DNA of 29,610 nt from a virus (lineage: Duplodnaviria > Heunggongvirae > Uroviricota > Caudoviricetes), in IMG/VR virus record IMGVR_UViG_3300028030_000006, positions 1-29,610 of that record; one strand, written 5' to 3'. Under the pieces are notes generated by a model. That model searched no databases. It saw only the letters and a program-made list of their open reading frames with translations, and was not told the origin of the DNA. The translations under genes were made by a program, and so were the position numbers. Below, one piece after another: positions 1 through 29,610 of this stretch (position 1 is its first letter; every line of letters begins with the position of its first letter).

Positions 1-127
1 AGCCATACGCTAAGCCATACGCTAAGCCATACGCTAAGCCATACGCTAAGCCATACGCTAAGCCATACGCTAAGCCATACGCTAAGCCATACGCTAAGCC
101 ATACGCTAAGCCATACGCTAAGCCATA
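1..127 (+). repeat. Perfect tandem array of the 12-bp unit AGCCATACGCTA (10 full copies plus 7 nt; may extend left of the window)
   Basis: Read directly: positions 1-120 are 10 identical units, followed by AGCCATA and then AT-rich sequence. Confidence 0.98.
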
Positions 128-8772: not shown

Positions 8773-8820
8773 ATTACTTTTGGAGAGGCGTCGCCATAAA
8801 GACCGCAATCTTAAAATACT

Positions 8821-8832
8821 GGGTAATTACCC
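8821..8832. promoter_or_regulatory. Perfect 12-bp palindrome GGGTAATTACCC immediately 5' of the capsid RBS
   Basis: Read directly; followed by TAAAGGAATAAATATG. Confidence 0.7.
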
Positions 8833-8845
8833 TAAAGGAATAAAT

Positions 8846-10078
8846 ATGGCAAAATTAAGTGATGTTATTGCTAAAGCAGTAAAAGACGTAAAGAGTGACG
8901 CTAAACAAGGTCTAGTAGCCTCTGCTAAATCAGTGGGTACATCAGTACCAAAACCTGAAGGTACATTAGGTACTAAAAGTTTATCTGGTGATGCTGGAAA
9001 ACTTGCTGAGCTAGGTTTTATTGCTAAAACACTTCGTGGTGGTAAGCTTGCGGATGTTGATGCAAAAGATTTGAATGCTCGTGCTAAAGCGGTTGGTGTA
9101 ACTGGAGACTTGTCTGAAGCATTGCCTGATGGTTTTACTGGTTCTTTACTTCGTGATATTCAAGAAGAATTGAATGTAGCTAAACTGTTTAAAGCAAAAC
9201 AAGTTAAAGGTGGTGTGGCACATGATCTTATTGCACTATATGGTATCTCTGCATACTTAAACTCAGAAGCAACTGATGGTGTTGATAGTGGTGAAAGTTA
9301 TACTACTTTCGTAGCTACTACTAATAAAGTAATGTCTGTTGTTCGTAAGTCTTATGAGTTGCTTGATGATTCTTTGATTGATATCGCTGCGGAAGTTCGT
9401 ACTGGTATAGTACGTGCAATTGCTGAAGCTGTTGAAGAAACTGTAATCAATGGAGATATTGCTGGTACTCAAGATGCTGGTACAGCTGCTAACTCAGCGG
9501 TTAAAGTATCTAATGGTTTACGTAAAACTGCATTAGGTAAAGGTACAGTTGACTTTGGTGGTGCTGCGTATACGGAAGATGACTTCCTAGGGTTCATTAC
9601 ACAAATGCAACTTCTTGGTGGTGTATATCTCGACCAACGTGCTGTAGCTCGTGGTGATGTTGTCCTTGTAATAGACCAACATACGTACGGTAAAATCAGA
9701 GCGTTCAAGTCTTACAAAACTTTAGATACTGCAGGTAGTATGGCTACATTGTTTGGCGGTAAAGTTGAGACTATTTTCGATATTCCTATCGTTGTAACTT
9801 CAGGCCTTCCTGCTGTTAATGCTTCTGGTGTTGTTGATGCAACTGCAGCTAACAATACACTAAGTACTTGTGTTCTTGCAAATATAGCAACATTCCGTTT
9901 ATCTATGAATGGTAATGTTATTTCTGAATCTGATCGTAATATCGTGAATCAAACATTTGTTTATACAGGTAGTTTGAGATATGGTTTCAGTTCTGTGTAT
10001 GATTCAACTGACTCTGCACCAAATACTATCGTAGCTTCTTATAAGAATGCTATTGCTGGTATCAATATGGCTCGCTAA
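8846..10078 (+). CDS. Major capsid protein, HK97 fold (410 aa; start moved from 8780 to 8846)
   Basis: AAAGGA RBS before MAKLSD. Follows the protease. Segments LPDGFTGSLLRDIQ, SYELLDDS, EETVINGD and IFDIPIVVT are typical of HK97-like capsids. Confidence 0.9.
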   Translation: MAKLSDVIAKAVKDVKSDAKQGLVASAKSVGTSVPKPEGTLGTKSLSGDAGKLAELGFIAKTLRGGKLADVDAKDLNARAKAVGVTGDLSEALPDGFTGSLLRDIQEELNVAKLFKAKQVKGGVAHDLIALYGISAYLNSEATDGVDSGESYTTFVATTNKVMSVVRKSYELLDDSLIDIAAEVRTGIVRAIAEAVEETVINGDIAGTQDAGTAANSAVKVSNGLRKTALGKGTVDFGGAAYTEDDFLGFITQMQLLGGVYLDQRAVARGDVVLVIDQHTYGKIRAFKSYKTLDTAGSMATLFGGKVETIFDIPIVVTSGLPAVNASGVVDATAANNTLSTCVLANIATFRLSMNGNVISESDRNIVNQTFVYTGSLRYGFSSVYDSTDSAPNTIVASYKNAIAGINMAR

Positions 10079-14407: not shown

Positions 14408-17400
14408 ATGGCATTAGAACAAGATTTATCATTTAAAATTGTACCTGAATTATCACTAGACTCTATGTCTAAAGAGATCAATGACGCATTAAGTCTAGTT
14501 AAAAAACTTGAAGCAGAAAATAAAAAGCTATGGCAAGAGGCGGAAAAGTTAGCTAAAAGTTTTGAAAATACTTATGCGCCTAGTCTCAGAAAACAGAAGA
14601 CGCAACTAAAAGCGATACATAAAGTAATTGGAGATAACAATAAGGAACTAGCAAAAACTTCTGCACACTATAAAGGTCTTGTAACTTCATATAAACATAT
14701 ATCTGCTGAACTTGGTAATCAAGCAAGCCTAATGGCGAATTTATCCGGTAAAAGTAAACTAGTTGCTACATATGAAGAACAGCGTGCGAGAAATATTGAG
14801 GCAGTCAATAAAGCTTTATCCTCAATTACTAAAGCAACGGAAGTAAATCGTAAGAATACGTATACGGATGCTGAACAGCAAAAAATTATCGTTGATAGAC
14901 TTAAAGCACAAGTACATGAGCGTAAAAGAGCTCGTATTGAGGCAAATAAGCTAGCTCAGGTTGATACAAAAGGCTTTAAGCTTTTACATAAACAAGCTAG
15001 GACTATAGCGTTTAATAATAAACAAGAACGATTCGCATTACGCCAAAAAGAACGTGAACAAGCTAGAATTAACAGCCTTCGCATACGTGAACGTTTGGAG
15101 GCTAATAAGCTCGCAAAAGTTGACACAAAAGGCTTTAAGCTTCTACAAAAGAAAGCTGAAGATTTACAATGGCAGTTACGACTAGAAGAGAAATTAGCGA
15201 AAGCTAAAGAGAAAAACAACGCTTCTGGAGTCTCATCTACAACAACTGCTGTCCGTAAACAAACTAAAGCACTTAAGTCTGCAACTAAAGCTGTTGAAGC
15301 ACACCAAAGTTCTTGGCACAGACATTTAACGTATATGGAATCGACAGGCGTTGTATTGAAGTACGGTCTTATATCTAATGCGTTATATGGTATTGCCGGA
15401 AAGATTGGTGATGTAGTAAAGGAACTTATAGCTTATGACTCTGCTATTTATAATAATTCTGCTGTACTTGGTATTTCTACCGAACAAGCGAAAACGTTAG
15501 CTGACAACACACGTGAGCTAGCTAAAACCTATGGTGGGTCAATTGAAGACCTTGATAAAGTAACACTAACACTAGGTCGTGCTGGTGTTGAATATGAAAA
15601 TCTAGCTGCTGCTACAAAAGCCGTATCACAGATGGCTACAATTACTGGTGACTCTTTAACAAGGTCGTCAGAAGTTGTTAGTACATTTATTACAAACTTT
15701 AAAGATGCTGGTATTACTGTAGAGCAACTAGCAAATAAACTAGCGTTCGTAGCTAATGCAACTAAACAAACTACTGAAGATTTAGGTACATTTGCTAACT
15801 ATGGACTACAAACAGCTAAGTCATTAGGGCTAACTGTAGATACGACATTAGCTTTAGAGGCTACCTTATCACGTTTAGGTTATTCAGCATCTACTGTTGG
15901 TACTGAGATACAGAAACTGGATAAAGTTTTTAATACATCTACAACAAGTATGAATAGATTTTTCGACTTGATGTTTGATGGTAAAGGTAAAGCCGCTAAA
16001 AAGTCTTTCGTTGAGGCGTTAGCTAATAAAGATGAAGATGCATTATTACGATTTTCTGATGTCATCACTAATGTGCCATATGATACATTTCTAAAAGCAA
16101 CTGATGGTATGGAGATCCGTACTAAGAAAATGCTATTAGCCCTTCGTATGGGTAATAAGTTATTTCATAAATATTCTGAAGAAATAAAAAATGCTGCAGA
16201 CGTATCTGAACAGGCTAAAGCTAAAGCATTAGGTTTAGCGACTATCTTAGAGCGTGTTAATGCTGAATTTGTTACGATTTTTAACAAATTTGAAGGTAGA
16301 ACTTTAAACGCTATATTCCCAAGCAGGGATAAAATTACTGAAACACGTAATGAACTACAATACTTAGTCCAAGGCACCGATGAGTATAACGCTAAAATGC
16401 GTGAACTCACTAGACTAAATGCTGATGTACAAGATAGCTTAGATAACTTTTCTGATACTATGACAAATGTAGGATTAGGTGTATTAGGTGCCGTAGGTAG
16501 TTGGACTGCCTGGAAGATTGCTGTAAAATCACTAAAACCCTTAATAACAGATGTCGTGGTAGTAACCGAAGGTGCATTAGCTAGTTTAACAGCATTAGGT
16601 TATTCTACAGCTGCTAGTTTTGGAATAATTGGAGGTCTTTTAGCTGCTACTACCTTTACTGGTAATAAGCTGTATGATGTTTGGCAACAGTTAGATAGTA
16701 TTTCAGACAGTACTACTAAAAAGGAACTTCTAGAAAAACATTTAAATGACTGGAAGAACTATTATAGTAACGCAACTCGTATACAAGCAGAGTATAATAA
16801 GATATCTGCATCACTTAATGATAAAGATGCGCACAATACCGAAGAAAGTATAAAACGAAAACGCCAAGCATTGGAATTACTACGTAAAGAGTGGAAAAAG
16901 AATCAGGACGTTTTCAATTTAGGTACATCTGTTACTGGATTATCTAAAAATCATGATAAACTACTATCACCTAAAGAAGTCCAAGAAAAAGAATATGCAC
17001 TCAAACTAGAAAAAGAGCTAGCGACGCGTAAAGAATTAACTGCTGCTAACCTAGTTAAAGCTAAAAAGCAAAATCGTAAACTAGAATTAGCTTATTATGA
17101 TTCGCAAATAAAAGCACTAAAAGCAGGTAAAGAGTTTATAGCTCAAGAGGAATATCAACACAAATTAGCACTACAAAAGATCCAAATAGCACAGCTTGAA
17201 CAAGAGTTAATGAAAGACTCTAAACAAGCTAAAGATGCGCAATACAAAATTGATCGTATGAAACAGACTGAGGAAATACGACACCTAAAAGCTACACGTA
17301 CTATTAGAACTACTTTAGACCGTGAAGAAGAGCGTACCTTTAAGTATAAACGTAAAATGATTTTAGCTGAGGCTCAAAAAGCTGGTGCTGGTAAAACTAA

Positions 17401-20400
17401 AGTTGAGCAAGAGCAACTATTACTTGATGCCTATAAGAAAATTGAAAAGCTATTACCTATTATTACAGACAATCAACTACGACTTAAAAATAGTAGGAAG
17501 GTAGATGTTGATACGGTCAAAACAGAAGCTGATTATAATCAAGCGCTATATACTCAGAATGAGATCTTAGAGAAGCTAGTATCTAAGTATAAAACTTTAC
17601 AAGAGCTAAAGCGTCAACCAGGACAAACTAACGTCCCAGTTTATAAACAAGCAGAGGCCGGTGTACATGAGAAGCAGAGAGATTTAGCTAATGCTTTAGA
17701 GTCAAATAATCCTATACGTATACAGCAAGCTAAAATTAAGTTACTTGAAGCTGAGTATGCATTACGAGACGCTATAAATAAACGTCAACTAGAGCTCATG
17801 CAACTAGAAGCCAATCAAGATTCTAAAAACCTAGCTGCTCAACAAAGACTAATTGAAACTTCTATTACTTGGAGTGGTGCGTTAAATGGGGTTCATCAGA
17901 ATATTGCAGAACTCTCTACGAGTATTCAAGGATTAATAGACCCTTACTTTAAGTTTAATAAAGCTAGGCAAGCTTTAGACGCTAAATATAAGAAAGACTA
18001 CGCCGAGGCTATAGGCGATAACGAGAAACAGAAACTACTATTAAAGCAGTATACTGAAGATAAGATTAACTTAACTAAGCAAGAGCGTGCTGAAGAAATT
18101 GCAGCGTACTCCGATATTGCAGGTGCTATGTCATCTTTCTATAAGGAAGGTACAGCAGGTGCAGCCGCGTTTCAAGCTGTACAAGCAACATTAGGGATTA
18201 TCAACGGTATTACAGCTATACAAGGTGCGTGGGCATCTGGACCATTCCCAGCTAACCTACCAGCAGTAGCTGCAACAACAGCTGCTGTGCTACCTATGAT
18301 TGATCAACTTATATCATTAGGCGGTTCAGGTAGTGCTGCCGGTACAGCGATGCCATCTAGAGTGGATACATATAAACAAAAATCTGAAGACTATGCTGAT
18401 AGCATGAAGCCTATTACAGATAGATTAGACCGACAGATTGAGCTACTACAAGCGATAAGTGGGTATGGTGGTTCAGCAATTGCGAAGCAGTTAGAGGATG
18501 CACTAACTACATATCGTATCGATAGTATGACTAATACGATAAAGAATCTAGGTACAGTCGGGAACCAGTTTTGGACTCCAGTTCCGAGAACTGACGGTAT
18601 ATCTGGAAGTTATAATACTATTTCAGCTGGGTATAAGATTGGCTCATTAGATGATTATTTTGGTAGTCCATATGAGGATAATATAGCTGCTGGGTACGAT
18701 AAAGAGTTGACTAGGATTCGCACATTATATGGTGATTATGTTAATGCTAAGGCAGTGACTTCGACAAGTGGTGGATTATTTGACTACGATAATACAGTAA
18801 GTAAAGATTGGTATGCTACTCTAAACGACGACTATCTAAAGCAAGATAATAACTTAGTACAGTTTATATTGAAATTGAAAGAGAATAATGACCTAGGAAG
18901 ATTTGGAGTTACAGACAGTGAGTATAAGACAATTATTGAGGACGCTAAAAGTACTTCTCATGATTTCGCTATGTCTATAATCAACTCTTATCAAACTGTA
19001 ATTGATGCTGGTAAAGATTTTAAAGAGCAGTATGATGCTATTTACGGTCCTATATATAAATCCAAACGCCTCACTGATGCATTTAAAGATGTGACTGAGC
19101 TGATGAACCCTAAAGGGACTAGCATATTAGCGCGTGGTCTATACTCAAATAATACAACTACTAAGTCTTACAAAGATTTTAAAAGCTTCTTAGATGACAC
19201 AATTAAGTCTATAGATGCAATGAATCTGACACGCGAAGAGGTAGCATTACTAAACTCTGATAATGAGAAAGACTTAAGTAAGAAAATTGAACTAGAAACT
19301 AGACTATCGCAGGAATTTGGTGAAGGGGCTAAGCAAGCGCTTAACTTCAAAGATAGTATTGAGTTAGTAGCACAAGCCTTAGCAGACTCTAGAAACAATA
19401 TAGAGGATTGGTTAGAGTCATTTAGGACTAGAAGTCAGTCACTTATTAATATGGCTATGAACTTAGACCCTAATATGAAGATTGCTACAGCAGGTAATGA
19501 GCTAACACGACTCTTTGAACGGTTAAGTGGTGGTGTTGAAGGATTATCAAACCAAGAGAAAGACTTTCTGGATGCAAATAGGGCGTATATTCAAGATTTA
19601 CAACAAGCGCAGTTTGATGTACTCAATACAGCGTTAACTGACTTATCAGCTGTTATTGACAAACTACGTGGTGCGTCAACTACATCAACGCAGTCTTTAA
19701 GTAAGTTTAAACATAGTATGCAGATAACACAAGAGTACTTAAATAATAAAAATTATGAGGCGTACAATGATTCGCTAAAGAAGACTATTGAACTATCTAG
19801 TATACTAACTAATAGTGATCCATTTAGTACTGGAAATCAACAAAAGTATGAACAACTTTTAGCTGCTAATCAGTTTGAAGGTATGCAGAAAGCTATTAAG
19901 CCGGAGATTGATCTACTTACACAAATTCGTGATAACACTAAAGTTACTGCTGATGATAGATACGCAATCCTACAATACAATAGTTTACTTGGTTTGGACG
20001 GTACGCAAAGTACTATAGACTACTATCGTGGAAATACGGTAGATACTATTTTAAATAGTGTTGGACAGTTTGCGGTAGGTGGTTTTACAGGTAGAGTAGA
20101 CAGTACTGGGCAGCGTGTTGCTGGTGTAGTACATGAGAATGAATGGGTAGCCCCAAGGTGGATGATAGAAGACCAGCCAGACCTTTTTAACTCATTAGAA
20201 TCATTAAGACAACAACGTAAGTTTGCTGCTGGAGGATTTACATCTAAGGCACCTACTAGTACGTTGAGTAATAATGAACTACTCGAGGAAATTAAGGAAC
20301 TTAACAAAGAGGTTAAAGACTTGAAACAGCTACAAATAACACAAACAGCAAATAGTACAAGGTCGCTAAATACACAACGTGCTATATTGTCAGAAGTTAT

Positions 20401-20416
20401 TAGTGAGGAGGATTAA
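14408..20416 (+). CDS. Tail tape measure protein, 2002 aa
   Basis: Very long helical/coiled-coil ORF with a TP901-like core (TLTLGRAG...SQMATITG), hydrophobic Gly/Ala segments, and C-terminal FAVGGFTG...AGVVHENEWV. Confidence 0.93.
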   Translation: MALEQDLSFKIVPELSLDSMSKEINDALSLVKKLEAENKKLWQEAEKLAKSFENTYAPSLRKQKTQLKAIHKVIGDNNKELAKTSAHYKGLVTSYKHISAELGNQASLMANLSGKSKLVATYEEQRARNIEAVNKALSSITKATEVNRKNTYTDAEQQKIIVDRLKAQVHERKRARIEANKLAQVDTKGFKLLHKQARTIAFNNKQERFALRQKEREQARINSLRIRERLEANKLAKVDTKGFKLLQKKAEDLQWQLRLEEKLAKAKEKNNASGVSSTTTAVRKQTKALKSATKAVEAHQSSWHRHLTYMESTGVVLKYGLISNALYGIAGKIGDVVKELIAYDSAIYNNSAVLGISTEQAKTLADNTRELAKTYGGSIEDLDKVTLTLGRAGVEYENLAAATKAVSQMATITGDSLTRSSEVVSTFITNFKDAGITVEQLANKLAFVANATKQTTEDLGTFANYGLQTAKSLGLTVDTTLALEATLSRLGYSASTVGTEIQKLDKVFNTSTTSMNRFFDLMFDGKGKAAKKSFVEALANKDEDALLRFSDVITNVPYDTFLKATDGMEIRTKKMLLALRMGNKLFHKYSEEIKNAADVSEQAKAKALGLATILERVNAEFVTIFNKFEGRTLNAIFPSRDKITETRNELQYLVQGTDEYNAKMRELTRLNADVQDSLDNFSDTMTNVGLGVLGAVGSWTAWKIAVKSLKPLITDVVVVTEGALASLTALGYSTAASFGIIGGLLAATTFTGNKLYDVWQQLDSISDSTTKKELLEKHLNDWKNYYSNATRIQAEYNKISASLNDKDAHNTEESIKRKRQALELLRKEWKKNQDVFNLGTSVTGLSKNHDKLLSPKEVQEKEYALKLEKELATRKELTAANLVKAKKQNRKLELAYYDSQIKALKAGKEFIAQEEYQHKLALQKIQIAQLEQELMKDSKQAKDAQYKIDRMKQTEEIRHLKATRTIRTTLDREEERTFKYKRKMILAEAQKAGAGKTKVEQEQLLLDAYKKIEKLLPIITDNQLRLKNSRKVDVDTVKTEADYNQALYTQNEILEKLVSKYKTLQELKRQPGQTNVPVYKQAEAGVHEKQRDLANALESNNPIRIQQAKIKLLEAEYALRDAINKRQLELMQLEANQDSKNLAAQQRLIETSITWSGALNGVHQNIAELSTSIQGLIDPYFKFNKARQALDAKYKKDYAEAIGDNEKQKLLLKQYTEDKINLTKQERAEEIAAYSDIAGAMSSFYKEGTAGAAAFQAVQATLGIINGITAIQGAWASGPFPANLPAVAATTAAVLPMIDQLISLGGSGSAAGTAMPSRVDTYKQKSEDYADSMKPITDRLDRQIELLQAISGYGGSAIAKQLEDALTTYRIDSMTNTIKNLGTVGNQFWTPVPRTDGISGSYNTISAGYKIGSLDDYFGSPYEDNIAAGYDKELTRIRTLYGDYVNAKAVTSTSGGLFDYDNTVSKDWYATLNDDYLKQDNNLVQFILKLKENNDLGRFGVTDSEYKTIIEDAKSTSHDFAMSIINSYQTVIDAGKDFKEQYDAIYGPIYKSKRLTDAFKDVTELMNPKGTSILARGLYSNNTTTKSYKDFKSFLDDTIKSIDAMNLTREEVALLNSDNEKDLSKKIELETRLSQEFGEGAKQALNFKDSIELVAQALADSRNNIEDWLESFRTRSQSLINMAMNLDPNMKIATAGNELTRLFERLSGGVEGLSNQEKDFLDANRAYIQDLQQAQFDVLNTALTDLSAVIDKLRGASTTSTQSLSKFKHSMQITQEYLNNKNYEAYNDSLKKTIELSSILTNSDPFSTGNQQKYEQLLAANQFEGMQKAIKPEIDLLTQIRDNTKVTADDRYAILQYNSLLGLDGTQSTIDYYRGNTVDTILNSVGQFAVGGFTGRVDSTGQRVAGVVHENEWVAPRWMIEDQPDLFNSLESLRQQRKFAAGGFTSKAPTSTLSNNELLEEIKELNKEVKDLKQLQITQTANSTRSLNTQRAILSEVISEED

Positions 20417-21759: not shown

Positions 21760-22608
21760 ATGGCAATTACACAAACTTTAAGTAGCTTACCGCAAGCAGG
21801 TAAACGTGGAGTACAGACGCGTAATGCGTTTGTAGCTGCACAAGAAGCCTTCCAAGATGCACTCTCTGGAGTATTTGTTACGGAGGCTAATACGTTATCT
21901 AGTCAGATTAATACAGTAGCTGATGAAGTAAATACTAACCAACTACTAGCGAAATCATATAAGGACGCTGCAAGTACATCCGCCGGTCTCGCAGAAACAT
22001 ATAAAAATAGTGCTGCAAGTACATATACTGAATTTCGTACGGTATATTTAGGTGTATTTAGTGAGGCTCCTACTACTGATAATCAAGGTAATGCCTTAGC
22101 TAGCGGAGCTCTATACTTTGACTCAACTGACGATGCTATGAAAATCTACATAGGTGGTACATGGCATTTGGCGTATGCTGATATAGCAGGAGCACTAACC
22201 AAAGAAGGAAATTTATATGGCATTTCTAGCGCTACTGCTGCTAGACAAAATATTCAAGCAGCATACTTGCATGGGTCATCCGGACTAAACTTTGATGCCG
22301 CTCATCTTACTGCAGCAGTTATTACTGAGACGTCGGATAGACGAGTAAAAGACAATATTGTGCCTATTGATGGAGCACTTGACAAAGTCTGTAATATGAA
22401 GGGTGTAGAGTATACTAAAGTCGATTCAGACACTAAAGAGATTGGACTAATCGCTCAAGATGTTGAGGAGATTTTACCAGAAGTTGTCTCTACAGACGCA
22501 GAAGGTATGAAATCAGTCAGCTACGCTAGATTAGTAGCTGTACTTATTGAAGCTGTTAAAGAGCAACAACAACAAATTAATGAATTAAAAGGAGCGATTA
22601 ATGGCTAA
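21760..22608 (+). CDS. Short tail fibre/adaptor with a C-terminal intramolecular chaperone (peptidase S74)
   Basis: TSDRRVKDNI...IGLIAQDVEEILPEVV...VSYARLVAVLIEAVKEQQQQINELK. N-terminal segment typical of tail-anchoring domains. Confidence 0.88.
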   Translation: MAITQTLSSLPQAGKRGVQTRNAFVAAQEAFQDALSGVFVTEANTLSSQINTVADEVNTNQLLAKSYKDAASTSAGLAETYKNSAASTYTEFRTVYLGVFSEAPTTDNQGNALASGALYFDSTDDAMKIYIGGTWHLAYADIAGALTKEGNLYGISSATAARQNIQAAYLHGSSGLNFDAAHLTAAVITETSDRRVKDNIVPIDGALDKVCNMKGVEYTKVDSDTKEIGLIAQDVEEILPEVVSTDAEGMKSVSYARLVAVLIEAVKEQQQQINELKGAING

Positions 22609-24079
22609 GTTAAAGACAACACAGATAGGTAATGGTTCTTGTGTGTATCTACCAGCGGATACATTTGGGTTTTCAGCAGGTAACACAGCTATTGTTGGTA
22701 CGTCAGCGGCAAGAATTGACAAGAGCGATACTGGCGCGTACACACGTTATTGCTCTACTGATGCGTATAATGCGAAAAATATTTCGTGCACAACTTCAAA
22801 CAGTACTGATACTAATCTAGAAATCGTACAAGTTGGCACTAATAGTGTAAGTATAGGGTATCATACTACAGCTACAGGCATTGCCGCTACTGCAATAGGT
22901 GCACACACGTCTGCATCAGGATGTATCGCACTAACCGCTGGTAAGTGTACTAGTGCTAAAGGTACACAGTCTGTATCCTTTGGCTACGCGTCAATAAGTT
23001 GTGGGGAGAACTCATTTGCAGTCGGGTCAGGTGTTTGTTCTATTGGTAATGCCAGTATAGCAGGTGGTACGGCGAGTAGTAGTAGCCTAGGTTATGCTTC
23101 CGTAGCAATTGGTTTTAATGCTGTGGCTTATGGTAGTTATTCGGCAGCCTTTAATAAGTGTACTAGGTCATGTGGTTACGCATCAGCAGCACTAGGAAAT
23201 CGCACCACTGCTTCAGGGGCGCAGGCACTAGCATTAGGCAATACTACCACTGCATGTGGGTTTGTAGCTATCTCTGCAGGCTTCTGTAACGTTACTGCTG
23301 ATGCTTATAACTTCTCTATGGGGTGTTGTTCTAATCGTATCACATTTGAGATGGACACTGGTAATGGCTATTTTGACGGCTCAGCTGATGTAGGCAACGC
23401 CGACTATGCTGAATATTTCCAACATGTTGAAGATTCTTGTCTAGATCGAGGAGTATTTGCTTCGTTAGCTGACGGGACGAATAAAGTTTGTGCAGGTAAT
23501 ACAGACATTATAGGGATTGTAAGTTCTGACCCAGCTATTGTTGGTGATGCACAATACTTCAAGTGGAAAGATAAATATAAGACTGATGAGTTTGGGCGTA
23601 AAGTTATTGAAAAACATATAAGAGTTGATGTTGTAGAAGCTACGGTAGATGAAATACCCGATGGAAATGATTTTAAGACATTTGTCACTGAACTAATCAC
23701 CTCTAGAGAGCCTAATAATTACTTTAATTTAGGTGAGGAGCAAACGTTAATCGAGCTTCAAGATTTTCCTGAGACTTGTCAAGTTGGGGAACAAATTACA
23801 TTTAATATCAAATATGAGACGACTGACGAAGTTGTAAATCCTAATTATGATCCAGATGCTGAGTATGTTCCTAGAGCTGAGCGGCCAGAATGGTCACCTA
23901 TCGGACTACTTGGAAAGTTATGGGTATACAAAGCTGACTTAGATGTTGAGTACAACGTAGGGGATTACGTTACATCTAATACTGAAGGTAAAGCAGTAAT
24001 AACAACTAAAGGTGACCCATTAGGTGCTTGGCGAATCTTAGAAGTAAGCCAGAATTTATTACGGGTACTATTCAAGTAA
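22601..24079 (+). CDS. Trimeric adhesin-like fibre: YadA-head-like repeats plus a peptidase G2 (phi29 gp12-type) autocleaving chaperone
   Basis: About 14-aa repeats (NSVSIGYHTTATG, AATAIGAHTSASG, ALALGNTTTACG), then ADYAEYF...IIGIVSSDP...DEFGR...NPNYDP...RPEWSPIGLLGKLWV. Confidence 0.85.
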   Translation: MAKLKTTQIGNGSCVYLPADTFGFSAGNTAIVGTSAARIDKSDTGAYTRYCSTDAYNAKNISCTTSNSTDTNLEIVQVGTNSVSIGYHTTATGIAATAIGAHTSASGCIALTAGKCTSAKGTQSVSFGYASISCGENSFAVGSGVCSIGNASIAGGTASSSSLGYASVAIGFNAVAYGSYSAAFNKCTRSCGYASAALGNRTTASGAQALALGNTTTACGFVAISAGFCNVTADAYNFSMGCCSNRITFEMDTGNGYFDGSADVGNADYAEYFQHVEDSCLDRGVFASLADGTNKVCAGNTDIIGIVSSDPAIVGDAQYFKWKDKYKTDEFGRKVIEKHIRVDVVEATVDEIPDGNDFKTFVTELITSREPNNYFNLGEEQTLIELQDFPETCQVGEQITFNIKYETTDEVVNPNYDPDAEYVPRAERPEWSPIGLLGKLWVYKADLDVEYNVGDYVTSNTEGKAVITTKGDPLGAWRILEVSQNLLRVLFK

Positions 24080-24089
24080 AGGAATTTAT

Positions 24090-24557
24090 ATGGAAGTAAT
24101 ATTCTATGGTCACCGTAAAGGTAACTTTTTTGATAAAGCTATCCGATGGTGGACATCTCCACTAAAGGATAAGCTATCAGGAAAGTGGAAAGATAGTTTT
24201 AGTCATGTAGAGTTATCCTTTAAACAAGGTGTTATGTGCAGTGCTAGCCAATATGAAAATAAAGTAAGATTTGCAGCTACTAGTCGTAGTGACGCATGGG
24301 TACGAGTCCAAATAAAATGTACTAATGAGGAAGCTAAACGTACTTATAAATTCTGCTTAGATCAGTTTAACAAACCATATGATTGGTTTGGTTTGTTCGG
24401 TTTCATCGTCCCATTTAGGACACAAGAAAAGGACAAATGGTTCTGCAGTGAATTATGTTGCGAAGCATTAAAGGTTGGAGGAATCCTACCAACGTATATA
24501 GTTAGCTCAAAGATCAGCCCTAATGGGTTATATAAGTTAGTTACGGAGAGGTTGTAA
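24090..24557 (+). CDS. Permuted papain-like NlpC/P60 (YaeF/YiiX-type) enzyme
   Basis: His before Cys order: FSHVEL ... KPYDW ... KWFCSELC ... ISPNGL. Confidence 0.82.
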   Translation: MEVIFYGHRKGNFFDKAIRWWTSPLKDKLSGKWKDSFSHVELSFKQGVMCSASQYENKVRFAATSRSDAWVRVQIKCTNEEAKRTYKFCLDQFNKPYDWFGLFGFIVPFRTQEKDKWFCSELCCEALKVGGILPTYIVSSKISPNGLYKLVTERL

Positions 24558-24955
24558 TGCCAGTAGAGATGTGGATGGTGGATTTAGCCATAGGTGTTGG
24601 GACAATTATTTTTGGTTATGGTTTATTCAAGGGTAAGGTTAATGCTTTAGAAGAATCTATGGCTAAACATAATGAAGAGGACTCTGTATTTCATACGGAT
24701 TTAGAGCGTCGACTGAATGCACAGTTTAAACGTATTGATGAGCTCCATACTAAAGTACTACTAACTCAAGCAGAGGCTAATAAACATGTTGACCTTCCAA
24801 CTATAGAAGAGAAGTTTGTATCGAAGCGGGAGTTGGAATTACAACTTAAAAATATCGACTTAGAGTTAAACTACATTGCCAAGACTGGTACAGAGACTGC
24901 GGGAAAGTTAGATGTGTTGATAGATGTAGTTAATAAATTAGTAAAGGATTCCTAA
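24557..24955 (+). CDS. Single-TM membrane protein with a coiled coil (holin/antiholin-like, uncertain)
   Basis: N-terminal hydrophobic helix LAIGVGTIIFGYGLF, then heptad-rich sequence; first gene of the lysis cluster. Confidence 0.55.
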   Translation: MPVEMWMVDLAIGVGTIIFGYGLFKGKVNALEESMAKHNEEDSVFHTDLERRLNAQFKRIDELHTKVLLTQAEANKHVDLPTIEEKFVSKRELELQLKNIDLELNYIAKTGTETAGKLDVLIDVVNKLVKDS

Positions 24956-25164
24956 TGTTACGAACAGATGTTAAACTTATAATGCGATACGTTACAGTTG
25001 TCTTCTTCTTATATTTAGCATGGTATATATTGCAACCAAAGTTTTTAACATCTGTTAAAGACATTGGCGATATTGGAATAGGTGCTATCTATACATCCAT
25101 ACTGGGAAGTGCAGCGTGGATAATTAAAGCTAACTGGAGCACGTCAATGGATAAGGAGACTTAA
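24955..25164 (+). CDS. Putative holin (two TM helices, 69 aa)
   Basis: YVTVVFFLYLAWYIL and IGIGAIYTSILGSAAWII with a charged C-terminus; adjacent to the spanins. Confidence 0.6.
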   Translation: MLRTDVKLIMRYVTVVFFLYLAWYILQPKFLTSVKDIGDIGIGAIYTSILGSAAWIIKANWSTSMDKET

Positions 25165-25166
25165 CT

Positions 25167-25565
25167 ATGTTAACCCAAATAAAGTCTGAAATTTGGCTGA
25201 TTATAGGTATTATCGGACTAATCTTAGCAGTAGGTATAGGTGTATACATAAACTCACTGAAAAGTACCATAAACTTACAACAAAAGCAGTACCTTCGACA
25301 GCAAATGAAAGTAGCAAATCTGCAGTTGGAAGTTGAGCGGTACTCTAACATTATCACATTACAGAATGATAGGATAAAACAATTAAAGATCCAAGAGCAG
25401 TTACATCGTAAAGAGTTGAATAGGTGGAAGTCATTACCGCCGGAAGTCAAATATAAGGTAATCTACCGTACCAAGTACAAAATCAAAAAGGTTAAATCAA
25501 ATGAATGTAAAGATATCAAGACTATTATTAATGGGGTTCGTAACATCAATTATAATGAACTTTAG
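25167..25565 (+). CDS. Inner-membrane spanin (Rz-like)
   Basis: N-terminal TM (IWLIIGIIGLILAVGIGVYI) plus a periplasmic coiled coil; overlaps a lipoprotein gene in another frame. Confidence 0.75.
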   Translation: MLTQIKSEIWLIIGIIGLILAVGIGVYINSLKSTINLQQKQYLRQQMKVANLQLEVERYSNIITLQNDRIKQLKIQEQLHRKELNRWKSLPPEVKYKVIYRTKYKIKKVKSNECKDIKTIINGVRNINYNEL

Positions 25566-25764
25566 CGGTTGTTGTATTTTGGGTACGTGTCCTAAACCAC
25601 CACCTATCTATGTTGATAAGCCAGTAAAAGTATATGTACCGGTTAAGTGTATTGTGCCAGACGCTAATTGTACATTCAATAAAGAAACTGACACAGAGGT
25701 TATTCAGAGTCTGTTAGAATGTATAATTGACATGAAACACAACGAAAAAGTATGTAAAAATTAG
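25501..25764 (+). CDS. Outer-membrane spanin lipoprotein (Rz1-like)
   Basis: Signal peptide II with lipobox FSG-C and a Pro-rich segment PKPPPIYVDKPV; 65-nt overlap with the i-spanin. Confidence 0.78.
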   Translation: MNVKISRLLLMGFVTSIIMNFSGCCILGTCPKPPPIYVDKPVKVYVPVKCIVPDANCTFNKETDTEVIQSLLECIIDMKHNEKVCKN

Positions 25765-25784
25765 AATAGCTTAAAGGAGCATTA

Positions 25785-28700
25785 ATGGGATTCACACCAA
25801 GAACAACAACACATACAGAACTATTTAATATTTGTGTAGATGCTCCTGATAGTATTCTAAACGCACTCCTAGAAGTTGATGGAGCCGGTTCTGGTTTAGA
25901 TGCAGATTTACTCGACGGATTAGAAAGTTCACATTACTATAAGTCTGCTGCAGGTACGATTACTAGTGGGGATTGGAATACATTTAAAACTCATGGCGTA
26001 TATAAAGTACAACATGCAAACTTTGATAATGACACTAATAACCCACCAGCATCTTATGCTTATGGTATTTTAAAGGTTGAGCGATCTGAGTACGGCGGAG
26101 AAGATAGAACTAACCAAACTTATATTCCTCATGGTACTTCTGATAAATTTATTTATCAGCGTATGTCTAATAATGATACTTGGACTGCTTGGAGTAAAGT
26201 TTTCCGTAACGGTTCTGGTGCTGGATCAGGGTTAGATGCGGATAAAGTAGACGGTTTACATGCGTCTCAGTTTTTGCGTAGTGATGCTATGACATCATTT
26301 AATACGGCTGGTAATAATTTACAGCTTGTTGGCGATACAGAAACTCGTACTGGGCTTCAGTGGAAACAAGGCAGTACGTGTGTGTGGGATCAACAAATTA
26401 AAGCTACTGGAGATTTACAGTTTGTAGGTACTACCAACCAAGCGTTTAACGTTGCTACTGATGGCGGTATGAATTTACGGTCAAGGACCGATACTTGCCC
26501 AGTTAACCTAAGATTTAGTAGTAATAGTGGTAGCGATTATTGTCAGTTCGGTACTATCAGCTATACGCATGCAGATAGTGCATCACACGGCCATACTGAA
26601 GAATTTACTATTAAGGGAAGTACAGATAATACAGGACTACGTCTAGAAGCAGATGTATATTTGGCTTCTAAAGCTAATAGTTGCTCTCATCCTATAATCT
26701 TTAATGGTACATCTGGAGAATCTGATACTAATGATAATGCTGGTGATTTTGCTATACGTGCAATTGGTGAGTGTTTAGTATTTTATGAACCTGAACAGTC
26801 AGGCGATATTCATATGGTTATTGAGGATGGTACTGGCGTAAACGCTAAATATGGGTTTAAAGAGAATGGTACTTGCCTTAAAGATAAATATATTAGGAAG
26901 ACTGTAGCAGATACTTTTACAAAATTGACAGGTAGCGCATTACATGTTACGTCTGATGGTAGTAATTCTACGGCTATTTGTTTTGATAATGATGGTAATA
27001 AGAATATATCTACTAATGACGGTAGTGGTAACTTTACTATTAAATCAGGTGTAAATGCATCTAGTATGCACTATATTGCAGATAATACTGGTGCAACTAG
27101 TATTGTTATGGATTCCGATACTGTTGATGGATGTATCGCGTTAGGTGTGTCTAATAAGGGATTAGCTTGTGATTTAGTTAGTTATACTTCTGCGTTACTT
27201 GTAACAGATGGTATAAATGGCCTTAAATGGACACAAGGTAGTGATTTACATGCTGGAGCTTTAGCTACTAAATACACTGTATACCATTCTGGGAATATTC
27301 CTACATGGAATCAAAGTACAACAGGTAATGCGGCTACGGCGTCAAAACTACAAACTGCTAGAACTATATCACTTGGTGGAGACTTGAGTGGTAGTACAAG
27401 TTTTGATGGTACAAGTAATGTAACTATTACAGCAGATGTGGCTAATGATAGCCATTGTCATGATGGTAGATACTATACTAAAAGTACTGCTGATAGTTGT
27501 TATGGTAAAGTAGGCGGTAGTCTAGATCAATTTAAAGATTATGTTGATGGAGATAATCATTGGCATACTAATGGTAGAGATCTTAAAGTCAATGGGAAGC
27601 GGGCACTGGTAGGGTTTTCTACTAATGATGGAAATCTTTTACACATAAACTACGCCTGTGACTTTGCTACTGGTACTTGTATTTATGGTACGCTCAAAAC
27701 TCAAAACGTCTATGGTAGTAATACTTATATGACTACTTTGTGTAGTTCAGGGGATACTACAATTGGTTATTATAGTAATAACGGCACAACTCACTGTGGT
27801 AGATTGTACTTTCGTACAGCTAAGTGTGTAGACAGTGCGGATGATATATGTACTAGTGGGTATATGTTTTTACATAGTGACGGAAGTATTAGAGCTAATG
27901 ATGTTTTATGTGCTCCTAAACTTTGTTCAGATACTTTATGTAGTACTATTAAGGTTTCTTCTACTTGCGCATATATTACTAATGCTTGTATTCCGACTAT
28001 ACAATCAGAAGTATCTTGTAGTACTTGCAGTATTCTTAACGGGTATAATTTAGGTACGTGTGTATCCGATTTATGTGCGTGTGTTGGTACAAAAATCAAT
28101 AGTTCCACTGCGTATTCGGCGTTCTTGCAGACAGGTGCGGATAGGGAACAGACGGTATCTGGTAGGTGTTTTCTGTTTAATAATGCTGCCCAGAAGATGT
28201 CAATGGATCCTAGAACTAGTTTGCCTAACTTTGATAATTCTAGCATAGGTGCTTTCCATATTTGGAATAAAGCAGATGAAGCAAGTGGGTATAATCCTGC
28301 CGGTATAGGTTTATATGATGGATCTGAGTATCAGTATTTAAGTACTGTTACAAACAATGGTATGTTACGTCATCAGAATGGTAATGGGTATTTAGAGACT
28401 GGTATAACAAATACTGGGTATGCTTCAATAAATACTGATAGAGCACTTATTAAAGTTAATAAAGGTGCTGAATTTGCTGGAGATGTATCATTAACTAATC
28501 ACTCTGTCTGTTGGCGAGAAAATACTGATTATGCAGCTATCGGTTTTGTTAATACTAGTGATAGTGATACAAATAGCTACATGTGTTTTAAAACCGGGGA
28601 TAATGGTAATGAGCACTTTAGATGGTATTCTCAGAATGGTGGAACTACGTCACTATGGATGCAACTAAATGGTGGTCACTTATCTATACCAGGTATTATG

Positions 28701-29498
28701 TGTGTTGGTGGTGGTCTTAAACAAGATGGTTTTACTATTCTGAATGGTAGTGATACGTGGTTAAGGACTAGTGGGAGTACCGGTTGGTATAATGCTACCT
28801 ATGGTGGTGGTATGTATATGGTAGATAGTACCTGGGTACGTACCTACGGCGGTAAAGGATTATACACTACAGGTACTTTACGAGCTGATGGCGGTGTTCA
28901 GGTTGATGGCAAGTATGCTATCTCTGCTGATGCTAAAACTTTATATGAGGATGAAGTTGCTTTACACGATAAGTATGTGAATCAATGGACGGCTATTAGT
29001 CAATCTGGGAATGATGTAAAATGGTATCGTATTGCACATGTTTCTGGCACCCAAAACGCTCAAATAAAGTTAGATTTACAAGGGTCTTATGGATTTGGTT
29101 CAGGAGCTACCAACTATGGTTTAGTGGTATTTTTAGAACTGCAAAATAATCAGGACTCTGATGATAATATAGGGATTGATGGATTTCAATATGGCGGTAC
29201 TGTACTAGACTTTGGCGTTGTAAAAATTGATAGTTATACTTATGATATTTATGTTAAAGTTAATACATTTATGGGTATGATTATATCAGCATTTAAATCT
29301 GATAATGCGAATCTCGTTACATTTACAGATGACTACAATAGTACTGATGCTCCTACTGATTTCATTAGCCACGCCACTGATATTAATACGATATGGTCGA
29401 GTAAGAATGATGGTTACGGTTCACAATTAGACGCTGGACGATTTGAAGGTAAAACTGGGCAAGATGTACTTAGTGCATATAATAATGCAAAAGCTTAA
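25785..29498 (+). CDS. Large mosaic tail fibre, 1237 aa, Cys-rich
   Basis: GSGLDAD-type junction motifs x3, a knob-like domain (GVYKV...YGILKV...WTAWSK), ATASKLQTARTISLGGDLSGSTSFDG, a PilV-like GWYNATYGGGMYMVDSTWVR segment, HxH motifs, and about 32 Cys. Confidence 0.9.
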   Translation: MGFTPRTTTHTELFNICVDAPDSILNALLEVDGAGSGLDADLLDGLESSHYYKSAAGTITSGDWNTFKTHGVYKVQHANFDNDTNNPPASYAYGILKVERSEYGGEDRTNQTYIPHGTSDKFIYQRMSNNDTWTAWSKVFRNGSGAGSGLDADKVDGLHASQFLRSDAMTSFNTAGNNLQLVGDTETRTGLQWKQGSTCVWDQQIKATGDLQFVGTTNQAFNVATDGGMNLRSRTDTCPVNLRFSSNSGSDYCQFGTISYTHADSASHGHTEEFTIKGSTDNTGLRLEADVYLASKANSCSHPIIFNGTSGESDTNDNAGDFAIRAIGECLVFYEPEQSGDIHMVIEDGTGVNAKYGFKENGTCLKDKYIRKTVADTFTKLTGSALHVTSDGSNSTAICFDNDGNKNISTNDGSGNFTIKSGVNASSMHYIADNTGATSIVMDSDTVDGCIALGVSNKGLACDLVSYTSALLVTDGINGLKWTQGSDLHAGALATKYTVYHSGNIPTWNQSTTGNAATASKLQTARTISLGGDLSGSTSFDGTSNVTITADVANDSHCHDGRYYTKSTADSCYGKVGGSLDQFKDYVDGDNHWHTNGRDLKVNGKRALVGFSTNDGNLLHINYACDFATGTCIYGTLKTQNVYGSNTYMTTLCSSGDTTIGYYSNNGTTHCGRLYFRTAKCVDSADDICTSGYMFLHSDGSIRANDVLCAPKLCSDTLCSTIKVSSTCAYITNACIPTIQSEVSCSTCSILNGYNLGTCVSDLCACVGTKINSSTAYSAFLQTGADREQTVSGRCFLFNNAAQKMSMDPRTSLPNFDNSSIGAFHIWNKADEASGYNPAGIGLYDGSEYQYLSTVTNNGMLRHQNGNGYLETGITNTGYASINTDRALIKVNKGAEFAGDVSLTNHSVCWRENTDYAAIGFVNTSDSDTNSYMCFKTGDNGNEHFRWYSQNGGTTSLWMQLNGGHLSIPGIMCVGGGLKQDGFTILNGSDTWLRTSGSTGWYNATYGGGMYMVDSTWVRTYGGKGLYTTGTLRADGGVQVDGKYAISADAKTLYEDEVALHDKYVNQWTAISQSGNDVKWYRIAHVSGTQNAQIKLDLQGSYGFGSGATNYGLVVFLELQNNQDSDDNIGIDGFQYGGTVLDFGVVKIDSYTYDIYVKVNTFMGMIISAFKSDNANLVTFTDDYNSTDAPTDFISHATDINTIWSSKNDGYGSQLDAGRFEGKTGQDVLSAYNNAKA

Positions 29499-29512
29499 AT
29501 AAAAGGAATAAC

Positions 29513-29610
29513 ATGGCAACTTTAACAGACTTTGCATGTGCTGTTGGTACAGACATAAAGAATTTAAATACTTGTGCTGGTACTAAATTATCATGCTCTG
29601 GTGGATACCT
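29513..29610 (+). CDS. 5' part of a further fibre/decoration-like gene, truncated by the window end
   Basis: AAAAGGA RBS. MATLTDFACAVGTDIKNLNTCAGTKLSCSGGY, open to the end of the window. Confidence 0.75.
   Translation, partial: MATLTDFACAVGTDIKNLNTCAGTKLSCSGGY

What the first reader, a model, noticed from the sequence alone, without database searches (positions are those of the whole stretch)
22601..29610. Cysteine enrichment confined to the fibre/adhesin proteins, apparently replacing Ser/Thr in conserved fibre motifs
Seen: by manual count the 1237-aa fibre has about 32 Cys, including 10 in 58 residues (27909-28082, CAPKLCSDTLC...CVSDLCAC) and none in its last ~250 aa. The 492-aa adhesin has 16, of which 13 lie before the ADYAE chaperone motif (aa ~267), i.e. 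in the part retained on the virion. The truncated last gene has 3 in 32 aa. I found no Cys in the 2002-aa tape measure and one in the capsid. Cys sits where such motifs normally carry small hydroxyl residues: SHCHDGRYY, TTTACG, SISCGENS, FACAVGTDIK. Established: phage fibres fold in the reducing cytoplasm and are usually Cys-poor. Inference: selection for a thiol-covered virion surface in three separate genes, possibly for inter-chain disulfide locking of trimers after lysis, metal or Fe-S mineral binding, adhesion to sulfur or sulfide surfaces, or thiol-directed modification by an enzyme encoded elsewhere. This is the best candidate for an undescribed system.
Basis: partly seen in the sequence, partly recalled or inferred. 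Interest (0 to 1): 0.78.

Follow-up and report, generated by a model that had tools for sequence, protein, structure and literature searches.

The report
Cysteine-rich tail fibres of vent phage
A phage from a hydrothermal-vent metagenome puts nearly half of all its cysteines into four giant tail-fibre proteins, probably to cross-brace them chemically. Similar cysteine-rich fibres in other phages tend to lie next to the same kind of sugar-transferase gene, a link not described before.

Summary
The window is the first third of a complete 93.6-kb phage genome. Four consecutive fibre genes (492, 1237, 1703 and 1300 aa; the last two lie beyond the window) hold 183 of 396 cysteines: 3.9% against 0.88% elsewhere (Fisher P 1e-44). 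None of 176 comparable fibre proteins reaches 2% (median 0.31%).

The fibres have no signal peptide. The phage has no tRNA, no diversity-generating retroelement (DGR) repeats and no thioredoxin, DsbA or radical-SAM gene. The cysteine-dense stretches have no relatives. They include a roughly 40-aa module with a conserved C-x7-C pair that was found in no other protein among 1.84 billion.

"Cys replaces Ser/Thr" holds for the cited motifs but not in general. At alignable columns, homologues show ordinary background composition.

The most likely role (about 0.45) is disulfide cross-bracing of the trimeric shafts after release, as in phages Pam3 and Milano.

A vent-specific reading is weakened, because a vent Nitratiruptor phage fibre has only 0.44% Cys.

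New lead: cysteine-rich fibres from at least six unrelated families, including open-ocean phages, lie beside a GT9-like glycosyltransferase that this phage also encodes.

The scan has noted cysteine-rich phage fibres on other DNA before, mostly ones with secretion signals. This one has none.

The parts
22601..24079 (+). 492-aa fibre/adhesin: YadA-head-like beta-roll followed by a phi29-gp12-type self-cleaving chaperone domain. 16 Cys, 13 of them in the retained part (aa 1-267).
   Evidence: Pfam YadA_head (E 7.6e-10) and Peptidase_G2 (E 7.8e-34). PDB sequence hits to the BpaC and YadA heads and to the phi29 pre-neck appendage. Cys positions. In the 14-residue repeats the Cys sit at positions 10, 12 and 14 of the second strand.
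24090..24557 (+). 155-aa protein of unknown role between the fibre genes, 6 Cys (3.9%).
   Evidence: Only a PHROG 1128 match.
25167..25565 (+). i-spanin-like gene (132 aa, 1 Cys) overlapping the next gene.
   Evidence: Position and overlap with the lipoprotein ORF. The function is an inference.
25501..25764 (+). o-spanin-like lipoprotein (87 aa, lipobox FSGC, proline-rich, 7 Cys).
   Evidence: Translation. Known o-spanins use periplasmic disulfides (own knowledge).
25785..29498 (+). 1237-aa tail fibre with 32 Cys (2.6%) and no signal peptide.
   Evidence: PHROG tail-fibre families. PDB sequence hit to a chain named tail fiber protein S (5yvq) at aa 881-1009.
27447..27470 (+). SHCHDGRY: a His-x-His fibre motif with Cys where relatives have Thr.
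   Evidence: The motif census gives T in 34 of 38 instances. T in 30 of 60 aligned homologues.
27741..27851 (+). One copy of the repeated module (aa 653-689) ending in K-C-VDSADDI-C, the conserved C-x7-C pair (C681, C689).
   Evidence: Seven copies aligned. A profile search of 1.84 billion proteins finds only this phage's three fibres. Both Cys lie outside the chain-to-chain interface of the trimer model.
27909..28082 (+). Ten Cys in 58 residues (aa 709-766); shaft segment.
   Evidence: Residues 699-752 are intertwined between chains in the trimer model (ipSAE 0.64; best of three controls 0.00). No homologue aligns here when composition correction is on.
28704..29498 (+). Cys-free C-terminal 264 aa of the 1237-aa fibre, probably the receptor-binding end.
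   Evidence: Similar to the C-terminus of the Nitratiruptor phage NrS-4 fibre.
29513..29610 (+). Start of a 1703-aa fibre gene (67 Cys) that runs to genome position 34624. It is followed by a 1300-aa fibre gene (34642-38544, 68 Cys, Peptidase_S74 end).
21760..22608 (+). 282-aa fibre-type protein with a Peptidase_S74 chaperone and only 1 Cys (comparator).
14408..20416 (+). Tape measure protein, 2002 aa, 0 Cys (comparator).
8780..10078 (+). Major head protein, 432 aa, 1 Cys (comparator).

Best explanation
The cysteines are a selected feature of four trimeric tail-fibre proteins that are made in the cytoplasm. Most of them sit in the rod-like shaft segments and in a repeated knob-like module.

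The most likely role is covalent cross-bracing. The conserved C-x7-C pair of each module would close a hairpin loop within one chain. Shaft cysteines of neighbouring chains would pair across the trimer once the particle leaves the reducing cell and meets oxygenated water. The result would be long fibres (about 4,700 residues in total) that resist heat, shear and proteases, and that a reducing environment could loosen again.

Shown here: the enrichment, its restriction to the fibres and two lysis-cassette proteins, the absence of a signal peptide and of any phage redox enzyme, the lack of relatives for the Cys-dense parts, and the predicted intertwined trimer. Inferred: that the thiols actually form disulfides, and when they do so.
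For: - Enrichment: 3.9% vs 0.88% Cys, P 1e-44. All four fibres exceed every one of 176 control fibres.
- Location: Cys concentrate in shaft or orphan segments. Conserved globular parts and the C-terminal 264 aa of the 1237-aa fibre have none.
- Module: the C-x7-C pair is kept in 6 of the 7 aligned copies.
- Conservation: among the phage's own paralogous segments, Cys is the joint most conserved residue (59%, equal with Gly).
- Spacing and neighbours: Cys-Cys spacing of 7 is over-represented (z 3.2), adjacent Cys are depleted, and V/I/L are about twofold enriched at -1 and +1, so the Cys lie in beta strands.
- Trimer model of aa 600-800: ipSAE 0.64 against 0.00 for the best of three controls, at least 80% of contacts shared between runs, partner pLDDT 61. 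The mark was reached by 21 of 30 proteins solved as pairs of one chain and 0 of 23 solved as single chains, and that calibration used two copies, not three. Residues 600-662 and 699-752 are intertwined. The chain-to-chain register shift is about 5 residues, and C709, C714 and C719 are 5 apart (the Cys juxtaposition is my inference).
- Precedent: disulfides link fibres to the baseplate in Pam3 (PMC9942802). They also link tail, tailspike and short tail fibre in Milano (PMC10811340). I know of no export route described for either phage (own knowledge; the papers were not checked for this).
- No signal peptide.
Against: - 41% of Cys positions differ between paralogous segments, which is much looser than in classical disulfide-knotted domains.
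- One fibre has an odd count (67 Cys).
- Cys also occur in the chaperone domains that are cleaved off: 4 in the S74 end of the 1300-aa fibre and 3 in the G2 domain of the 492-aa protein.
- No phage oxidase gene was found.
- The source is a vent metagenome, where oxygen may be scarce.
- No atomic coordinates were available, so S-S distances could not be measured. The monomer model of the module is of low confidence (pLDDT 52.7).
- The link with a glycosyltransferase gene suggests that disulfides may not be the whole story.
Confidence: 0.45

Rival explanations
1. The cysteine-rich fibres work together with the phage's GT9-like (heptosyltransferase-type) glycosyltransferase. The enzyme would decorate the fibres in the cytoplasm, either on the thiols themselves (S-linked sugar) or on Ser/Thr framed by cysteines. 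This would be analogous to the way bacterial autotransporter heptosyltransferases decorate beta-helical adhesins.
For: - This genome encodes a GT9-like protein (genome 40652-41560, Pfam Glyco_transf_9 E 5e-8) beside a carbamoyltransferase, 2.1 kb past the last fibre gene.
- The only two homologues of the 492-aa fibre with at least 2% Cys (4.2% and 2.0%) each have a GT9 homologue directly adjacent (48% and 39% identity). A 1.1% homologue on a 10.9-kb contig has none.
- Across 130 loci found with the GT9 alignment (40 clusters), fibre-like ORFs within 1.5 kb of the GT9 gene have a median of 2.19% Cys and 10 of 19 reach 2%. Those farther away have a median of 0.65% (Mann-Whitney P 0.008). Of 176 control fibres, none reaches 2% (Fisher P 5e-12).
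- The Cys-rich neighbours fall into at least 6 BLAST-unrelated families. Several carry S74 or G2 fibre chaperone domains.
- Five relatives of this phage without the GT9 gene have fibres with at most 1.7% Cys (positive control).
Against: - There is no common sequence motif around Cys across the families.
- I know of no GT9 enzyme that glycosylates cysteine (own knowledge; nothing found).
- In this genome the GT9 gene is on the opposite strand, among DNA-metabolism genes (RuvC-like, exonuclease-like).
- The statistics are not corrected for shared ancestry.
- Adjacency could simply mark the end of the structural module, or pair a receptor-binding gene with a gene that modifies the host's receptor.
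Confidence: 0.2
2. The thiols stay reduced and act as ligands. They would bind metal ions (Fe, Zn, Cu) along the trimer axis, or stick the fibres to sulfide minerals, sulfur or a thiol-reactive host surface in the vent habitat.
For: - The source run is labelled hydrothermal vent metagenome.
- In the N-terminal shaft of the 1703-aa fibre, several Cys stand where relatives have core residues V, L or A, so three equivalent thiols may face the axis.
- Fibre motifs of the His-x-His type bind iron in T4 gp37 (own knowledge), and one such motif here carries Cys.
- Loose positional conservation fits a function that depends on thiol density.
Against: - The related fibre of a cultured vent phage (Nitratiruptor NrS-4, from a vent chimney) has 3 Cys in 686 aa.
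- Comparably Cys-rich fibres occur on Tara Oceans and other marine contigs.
- Classic metal motifs are not enriched: CxxC and CxC spacings are at or below expectation.
Confidence: 0.12
3. There is no specific function. In these glycine/serine-rich, fast-evolving genes with no relatives, the usual avoidance of cysteine is simply relaxed, and composition does the rest.
For: From position-specific base frequencies, the fibre genes are expected to have 3.1% Cys codons, against 1.34% in the other genes. Cys positions turn over between paralogues.
Against: - That expectation is partly circular.
- Homologous fibres of similar composition have a median of 0.31% Cys and never reach 2%.
- The observed/expected ratio is 1.25 in the fibres against 0.65 elsewhere.
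- Cys is as conserved as Gly between paralogues, and the C-x7-C pair is kept in 6 of 7 aligned module copies.
Confidence: 0.08

Closest known systems
Disulfide-linked tail fibres of cyanophage Pam3 (PMC9942802)
   Same: The fibres are covalently held by disulfides and are released by DTT, and a redox-dependent behaviour is proposed. I know of no export route described for this phage (own knowledge; the paper was not checked for this).
   Different: Pam3 uses one N-terminal Cys per fibre chain to bond to Cys-rich loops of the baseplate wedge. Here there are 16-68 Cys per chain spread along the shafts, and the neighbouring baseplate-type proteins are Cys-poor.
Disulfide network of Agrobacterium phage Milano (PMC10811340)
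   Same: Disulfides lie within and between tail proteins, including three within the short tail fibre and several in the tailspike. The authors suggest reduction at the host surface as a trigger.
   Different: In Milano the network runs through sheath, tube and baseplate. Here the tail tube, tape measure and head proteins are nearly Cys-free, and the density in the fibres is several-fold higher.
Bacterial autotransporter heptosyltransferases (TibC, AAH) acting on AIDA-I/TibA adhesins (own knowledge)
   Same: A GT9-type enzyme is encoded beside a repetitive beta-structured adhesin that is made in the cytoplasm.
   Different: Those enzymes are about 400 aa and modify serine, and their substrates are not Cys-rich. 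The phage protein is about 300 aa and only distantly GT9-like: its best PDB sequence hit is WaaF, E 2e-4. No activity has been shown.
Sec-exported, disulfide-rich phage fibres and Erv-oxidase-linked fibres noted earlier in this scan
   Same: Phage fibre genes with unusually many cysteines.
   Different: Those carry signal peptides or sit beside a sulfhydryl oxidase gene. These four fibres have no signal peptide, and no oxidase gene was found.

Membership tests
Disulfide-cross-linked phage tail fibres (Pam3 / Milano type) | Made without an export signal | tested here: met
   The N-termini of all four fibres lack a hydrophobic signal segment.
Disulfide-cross-linked phage tail fibres (Pam3 / Milano type) | Cysteine pairs within bonding distance in the assembled trimer | not testable with these tools
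   The trimer model gives interface residues but no coordinates. The monomer model of the module has pLDDT 52.7.
Disulfide-cross-linked phage tail fibres (Pam3 / Milano type) | Cysteines conserved among related copies | tested here: inconclusive
   59% conserved between paralogous segments, the highest of any residue but far from invariant. The C-x7-C pair is kept in 6 of 7 aligned copies.
Sec-exported disulfide-rich fibres (earlier scan findings; Bdellovibrio MAT-like) | N-terminal signal peptide | tested here: not met
   No signal peptide on any of the four fibres.
Phage fibres serviced by a phage thiol oxidoreductase | Thioredoxin, DsbA, glutaredoxin or Erv gene in the genome | tested here: not met
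   No match for PF00085, PF01323 or PF00462 (controls rang). There was also none for PF04777, but its control rang nowhere, so that one is uninformative.
YadA-head adhesin with phi29-gp12-type autochaperone (492-aa protein) | YadA_head repeats plus Peptidase_G2 domain with the ADYAE cleavage motif | tested here: met
   Both Pfam domains score above their cut-offs. D268, A267 and E271 are invariant in 33 aligned homologues, and Y269 and A270 are at least 90% conserved. PDB sequence hits.
Diversity-generating retroelement target | Template/variable repeat pair with adenine-specific mismatches near a reverse transcriptase | tested here: not met
   A reverse transcriptase exists (genome 88491-89399). 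Self-comparison finds no such repeat pair, and the one nearby repeat is a promoter-like duplication.
Late-gene codon reassignment | Phage tRNA able to read TGY differently | tested here: not met
   No tRNA genes in the 93.6-kb genome. TGY codons also occur in zinc-ribbon-type CxxC motifs of other genes.
Protein-glycosylating GT9 enzyme with adhesin substrate (BAHT-like) | GT9-family enzyme encoded beside its repetitive adhesin substrate | tested here: inconclusive
   The GT9-like gene is present, and its homologues lie beside Cys-rich fibres in many loci. There is no evidence that the fibre is its substrate.

The most novel reading that the evidence does not exclude
Cysteine-rich phage fibres and the GT9-like transferase form a two-part system. 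The enzyme would attach a (possibly carbamoylated) heptose-type sugar to fibre cysteines, or to residues framed by them. That would give virions a thiol-linked glycan coat, a modification not known for any virus particle or for this enzyme family.
Probability: 0.12. Interest if true: 0.85.

Novelty: new variant of a known kind. Interest (0 to 1): 0.58.

Why it matters
Tail fibres decide which cells a phage can infect and how long a particle survives outside a cell. Disulfide-locked tails have only recently been seen, in two cultured phages. This genome shows the idea taken to an extreme: 183 cysteines in four fibres, with no export signal and no oxidase.

Combined with the wider survey, it suggests that cysteine-rich fibres are a recurrent design in marine phages and are tied to a particular sugar-transferase gene. 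If the link is functional, it would point to an unrecognised chemical modification of virions. It would also give a simple genomic marker for finding such fibres.

Tried and rejected
- **Sense-codon recoding by a phage tRNA:** no tRNA genes.
- **DGR mutagenesis:** a reverse transcriptase is present, but there is no template/variable repeat pair. An earlier report calls it a retron.
- **Pure base-composition effect:** rejected, because control fibres of like composition are Cys-poor and the observed/expected ratio differs twofold between fibres and other genes.
- **Column-by-column replacement analysis without composition correction:** it gave spurious coverage of the Cys-dense region. With correction, no homologue aligns past residue 720 of the 1237-aa fibre, so only 60 of 183 Cys could be assessed.
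- **Near-identity and protein searches of cultured phages:** no close relative. The fibre region has no near-identical DNA match, the fibre protein has only partial hits, and the head protein has no match.
- **Population variation:** the second run differs at only 2 of 7010 bases, so selection on Cys codons could not be tested.
- **RNA:** no RNA holder was listed for the stretch.
- **Monomer model of the module:** pLDDT 52.7. It was used only to note that the C-x7-C pair flanks a predicted loop between two strands.
- **Model coordinates:** not retrievable, so no sulfur-sulfur distances.
- **Erv family search:** uninformative, because its control rang nowhere.
- **399-aa gene next to the GT9 gene:** a metallophosphoesterase/exonuclease type, not a sugar enzyme.
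- **Single-sequence scan for GT9 relatives:** found nothing. The alignment-based scans worked.

Full report
**What the window is.** The 29.6-kb window is the first third of a single 93,610-bp virus record with direct terminal repeats. It carries:
- a large terminase, portal, protease/scaffold and major head protein;
- a tail-tube-like protein and a 2002-aa tape measure protein;
- then a run of fibre genes interrupted by a lysis cassette.

It has no close relative among 50,697 cultured-phage records. The fibre region has no near-identical DNA match, the fibre protein has only partial hits, and the head protein has no match. One public run labelled "hydrothermal vent metagenome" holds all sampled words of the fibre region and may be its source. 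A run from a different study (2025) holds the same 7 kb with two substitutions, so the sequence is reproducible.

**The observation.** The signal is larger than reported, because two more giant fibre genes follow the window: genome 29513-34624 (1703 aa, 67 Cys, 3.9%) and 34642-38544 (1300 aa, 68 Cys, 5.2%).
- The four fibres hold 183 of the genome's 396 cysteines in 16% of its coding residues: 3.87% against 0.88% (Fisher P 1.5e-44).
- The tape measure has none and the head protein has one.
- The enrichment is not strictly confined to fibres. A 155-aa protein and an o-spanin-like lipoprotein in the lysis cassette are also Cys-rich. For a periplasmic spanin that is ordinary.

**Comparison with relatives.** Searches with the 1237-aa, 492-aa and 1300-aa proteins returned 206 homologues.
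- After applying one length and composition filter, 176 control fibres have a median of 0.31% Cys and a maximum of 1.85%. None reaches 2%, and all four fibres here exceed every control.
- The matches cover only the conserved globular or motif-bearing parts.
- With composition correction on, nothing aligns to the Cys-dense region of the 1237-aa fibre.
- The Cys-dense parts include a roughly 40-residue module, consensus VGYxSNNxTTH(C)Gxx(F)RSxKCVDxADDxC, present seven or eight times in three of the fibres. A profile of this module, searched against 1.84 billion representative proteins, found only these three proteins.

**Does cysteine replace Ser/Thr?** For the cited motifs, yes. The middle residue of SH-x-HD is Thr in 34 of 38 motif instances, and the A-S-G serine of the YadA-type repeat is Ser in 15 of 28 homologues. 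As a rule, no. Over the 60 Cys in robustly aligned columns, the residues seen in homologues match the background composition of these proteins. Many of these Cys stand where relatives have D, E, R, W, N, V or L. Some therefore replace charged, probably exposed residues, and others replace core-type hydrophobic residues.

**Trivial causes excluded.**
- The genome has no tRNA genes, so phage-driven recoding is out.
- A 302-aa reverse transcriptase lies 59 kb beyond the window's end, but no template/variable repeat pair exists.
- Position-specific base composition predicts more Cys codons in the fibre genes (3.1% against 1.34%). That expectation is partly circular. The observed/expected ratio is 1.25 in the fibres against 0.65 elsewhere, and compositionally similar homologues are Cys-poor.
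- None of the fibres has a signal peptide.
- The genome has no thioredoxin, DsbA, glutaredoxin or radical-SAM gene. The Erv search was uninformative.

**Anatomy.**
- Cys density is highest in shaft-like segments that have no relatives. It is near zero in conserved globular domains and in the C-terminal 264 aa of the 1237-aa fibre.
- V, I and L are about twofold enriched on either side of Cys. Adjacent Cys are depleted, and a spacing of 7 is over-represented (z 3.2).
- Between the phage's own paralogous segments, Cys is conserved at 59%, level with Gly and above every other residue, but with much gain and loss. The C-x7-C pair of the module is kept in six of the seven aligned copies.
- In the 492-aa protein the Cys occupy positions 10, 12 and 14 of the 14-residue beta-roll repeat, all on one face of the second strand.

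**Trimer model.** A three-copy model of residues 600-800 of the 1237-aa fibre scored ipSAE 0.64 against 0.00 for the best of three controls. The runs agreed in at least 80% of contacts, and the partner's pLDDT was 61. The mark was reached by 21 of 30 proteins solved as pairs of one chain and by 0 of 23 solved as single chains, and that calibration used two copies, not three.
- Residues 600-662 and 699-752 are intertwined between chains. The module core, including C681 and C689, is mostly outside the interface.
- Eleven of the 17 Cys in this stretch lie in the interface, about the same share as all residues.
- The listed contacts show a chain-to-chain register shift of about five residues, and C709, C714 and C719 are five apart. 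This would put Cys of neighbouring chains side by side, but that is my inference, not a measured distance.

**Most likely mechanism.** Two cultured phages show that tail fibres can carry functional disulfides.
- Pam3 fibres are bonded to the baseplate wedge and fall off in DTT (PMC9942802).
- Milano has disulfides through tail, tailspike and short tail fibre, and needs reduction to contract (PMC10811340).

I know of no export route described for either phage (own knowledge; the papers were not checked for this). The best reading here is the same principle at much higher density. Loop staples would form within each module, and inter-chain bonds would form along the shafts after release from the cell. 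I give this about 0.45. What weakens it:
- the loose positional conservation;
- the Cys in the cleaved chaperone domains;
- the missing oxidase;
- a possibly oxygen-poor habitat.

**Habitat.** The fibre of Nitratiruptor phage NrS-4, isolated from a vent chimney and sharing two domains with these fibres, has 3 Cys in 686 aa. Five more distant relatives of this phage in IMG/VR have fibres with 0-1.7% Cys. Equally Cys-rich fibres occur on Tara Oceans and other marine contigs.

**An unexpected link.** An earlier report on this genome described a GT9-like glycosyltransferase and a carbamoyltransferase 2 kb past the last fibre gene (confirmed).
- Only two of the 41 homologues of the 492-aa fibre reach 2% Cys (4.2% and 2.0%). 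Each has a homologue of that GT9 gene directly adjacent (48% and 39% identity). A 1.1% homologue on a 10.9-kb contig has none.
- Scans with a GT9 alignment gave 130 loci in 40 clusters.
- After removing duplicates, fibre-like ORFs within 1.5 kb of the GT9 gene have a median of 2.19% Cys and 10 of 19 reach 2%. Those farther away have a median of 0.65% and 3 of 17 reach 2% (Mann-Whitney P 0.008). Against controls (0 of 176) the difference is P 5e-12.
- The Cys-rich neighbours fall into at least six BLAST-unrelated families. Several have S74 or G2 fibre chaperone domains, and those with a complete N-terminus that I read show no signal peptide.
- The five relatives of this phage with Cys-poor fibres lack the gene (positive control).

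**Caveats on the link.**
- The test is not corrected for shared ancestry.
- No common motif surrounds the Cys.
- In this genome the GT9 gene lies on the other strand, among DNA-metabolism genes.
- Adjacency could also reflect module boundaries, or a pairing between a receptor-binding gene and a receptor-modifying gene.
- I found no paper describing this link.
- I rate a functional coupling at about 0.2, and cysteine-linked glycosylation specifically at about 0.12.

**Verdict.** Cysteine-rich phage fibres have been noted repeatedly in this scan, mostly with secretion signals or an oxidase. This case has neither, has cysteine-dense modules found in no other protein, and provides the lead to the GT9 association. 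It is a new variant of a known kind (disulfide-stabilised phage tail fibres), with a testable and possibly new modification system attached.

Noticed in passing
genome 40652-43214 (beyond the window; L003:1652-4214, minus strand) and loci L002, L006, L018-L146: Homologues of this phage's GT9-like glycosyltransferase lie directly beside unusually Cys-rich fibre genes in many unrelated phages. Fibre genes farther from the GT9 gene in the same loci are Cys-poor.
   Followed up: partly
genome 88491-89399 (beyond the window; L005:13491-14399, minus strand): A 302-aa reverse transcriptase with a YADD box and a retron-like NAxxH motif. There is no DGR-type repeat pair. An earlier report on this genome reads it as a phage retron.
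   Followed up: partly
window 1-125 and genome 93486-93610: An identical 125-bp terminal repeat containing short tandem units. The record is classed as having direct terminal repeats, so the genome is probably complete.
   Followed up: no
window 29460-29498 and L001:5586-5624: The 1237-aa and 1703-aa fibres end in nearly the same peptide (AYNNAKA / AYNAAKA). The 1703-aa and 1300-aa fibres start with nearly the same 40 residues, including two conserved Cys (C21, C28). This suggests shared docking sites for end-to-end or parallel attachment.
   Followed up: no
window 24090-25764: A lysis cassette (a 155-aa Cys-rich protein, two small ORFs, overlapping spanin-like genes) sits between the second and third fibre genes. 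A GH108-type endolysin lies after the last fibre gene (genome 38895-39419).
   Followed up: partly
L032:2030-3598: A 523-aa fibre combining collagen repeats, a beta-roll and a Peptidase_G2 chaperone has 30 Cys (5.7%). It lies 71 nt from a GT9 homologue.
   Followed up: no
window 23157 and 23685: These are the only two differences between the two public runs in 7 kb (A>C and T>C, both in the 492-aa gene). By my reading, the first changes Lys186 next to Cys187.
   Followed up: no
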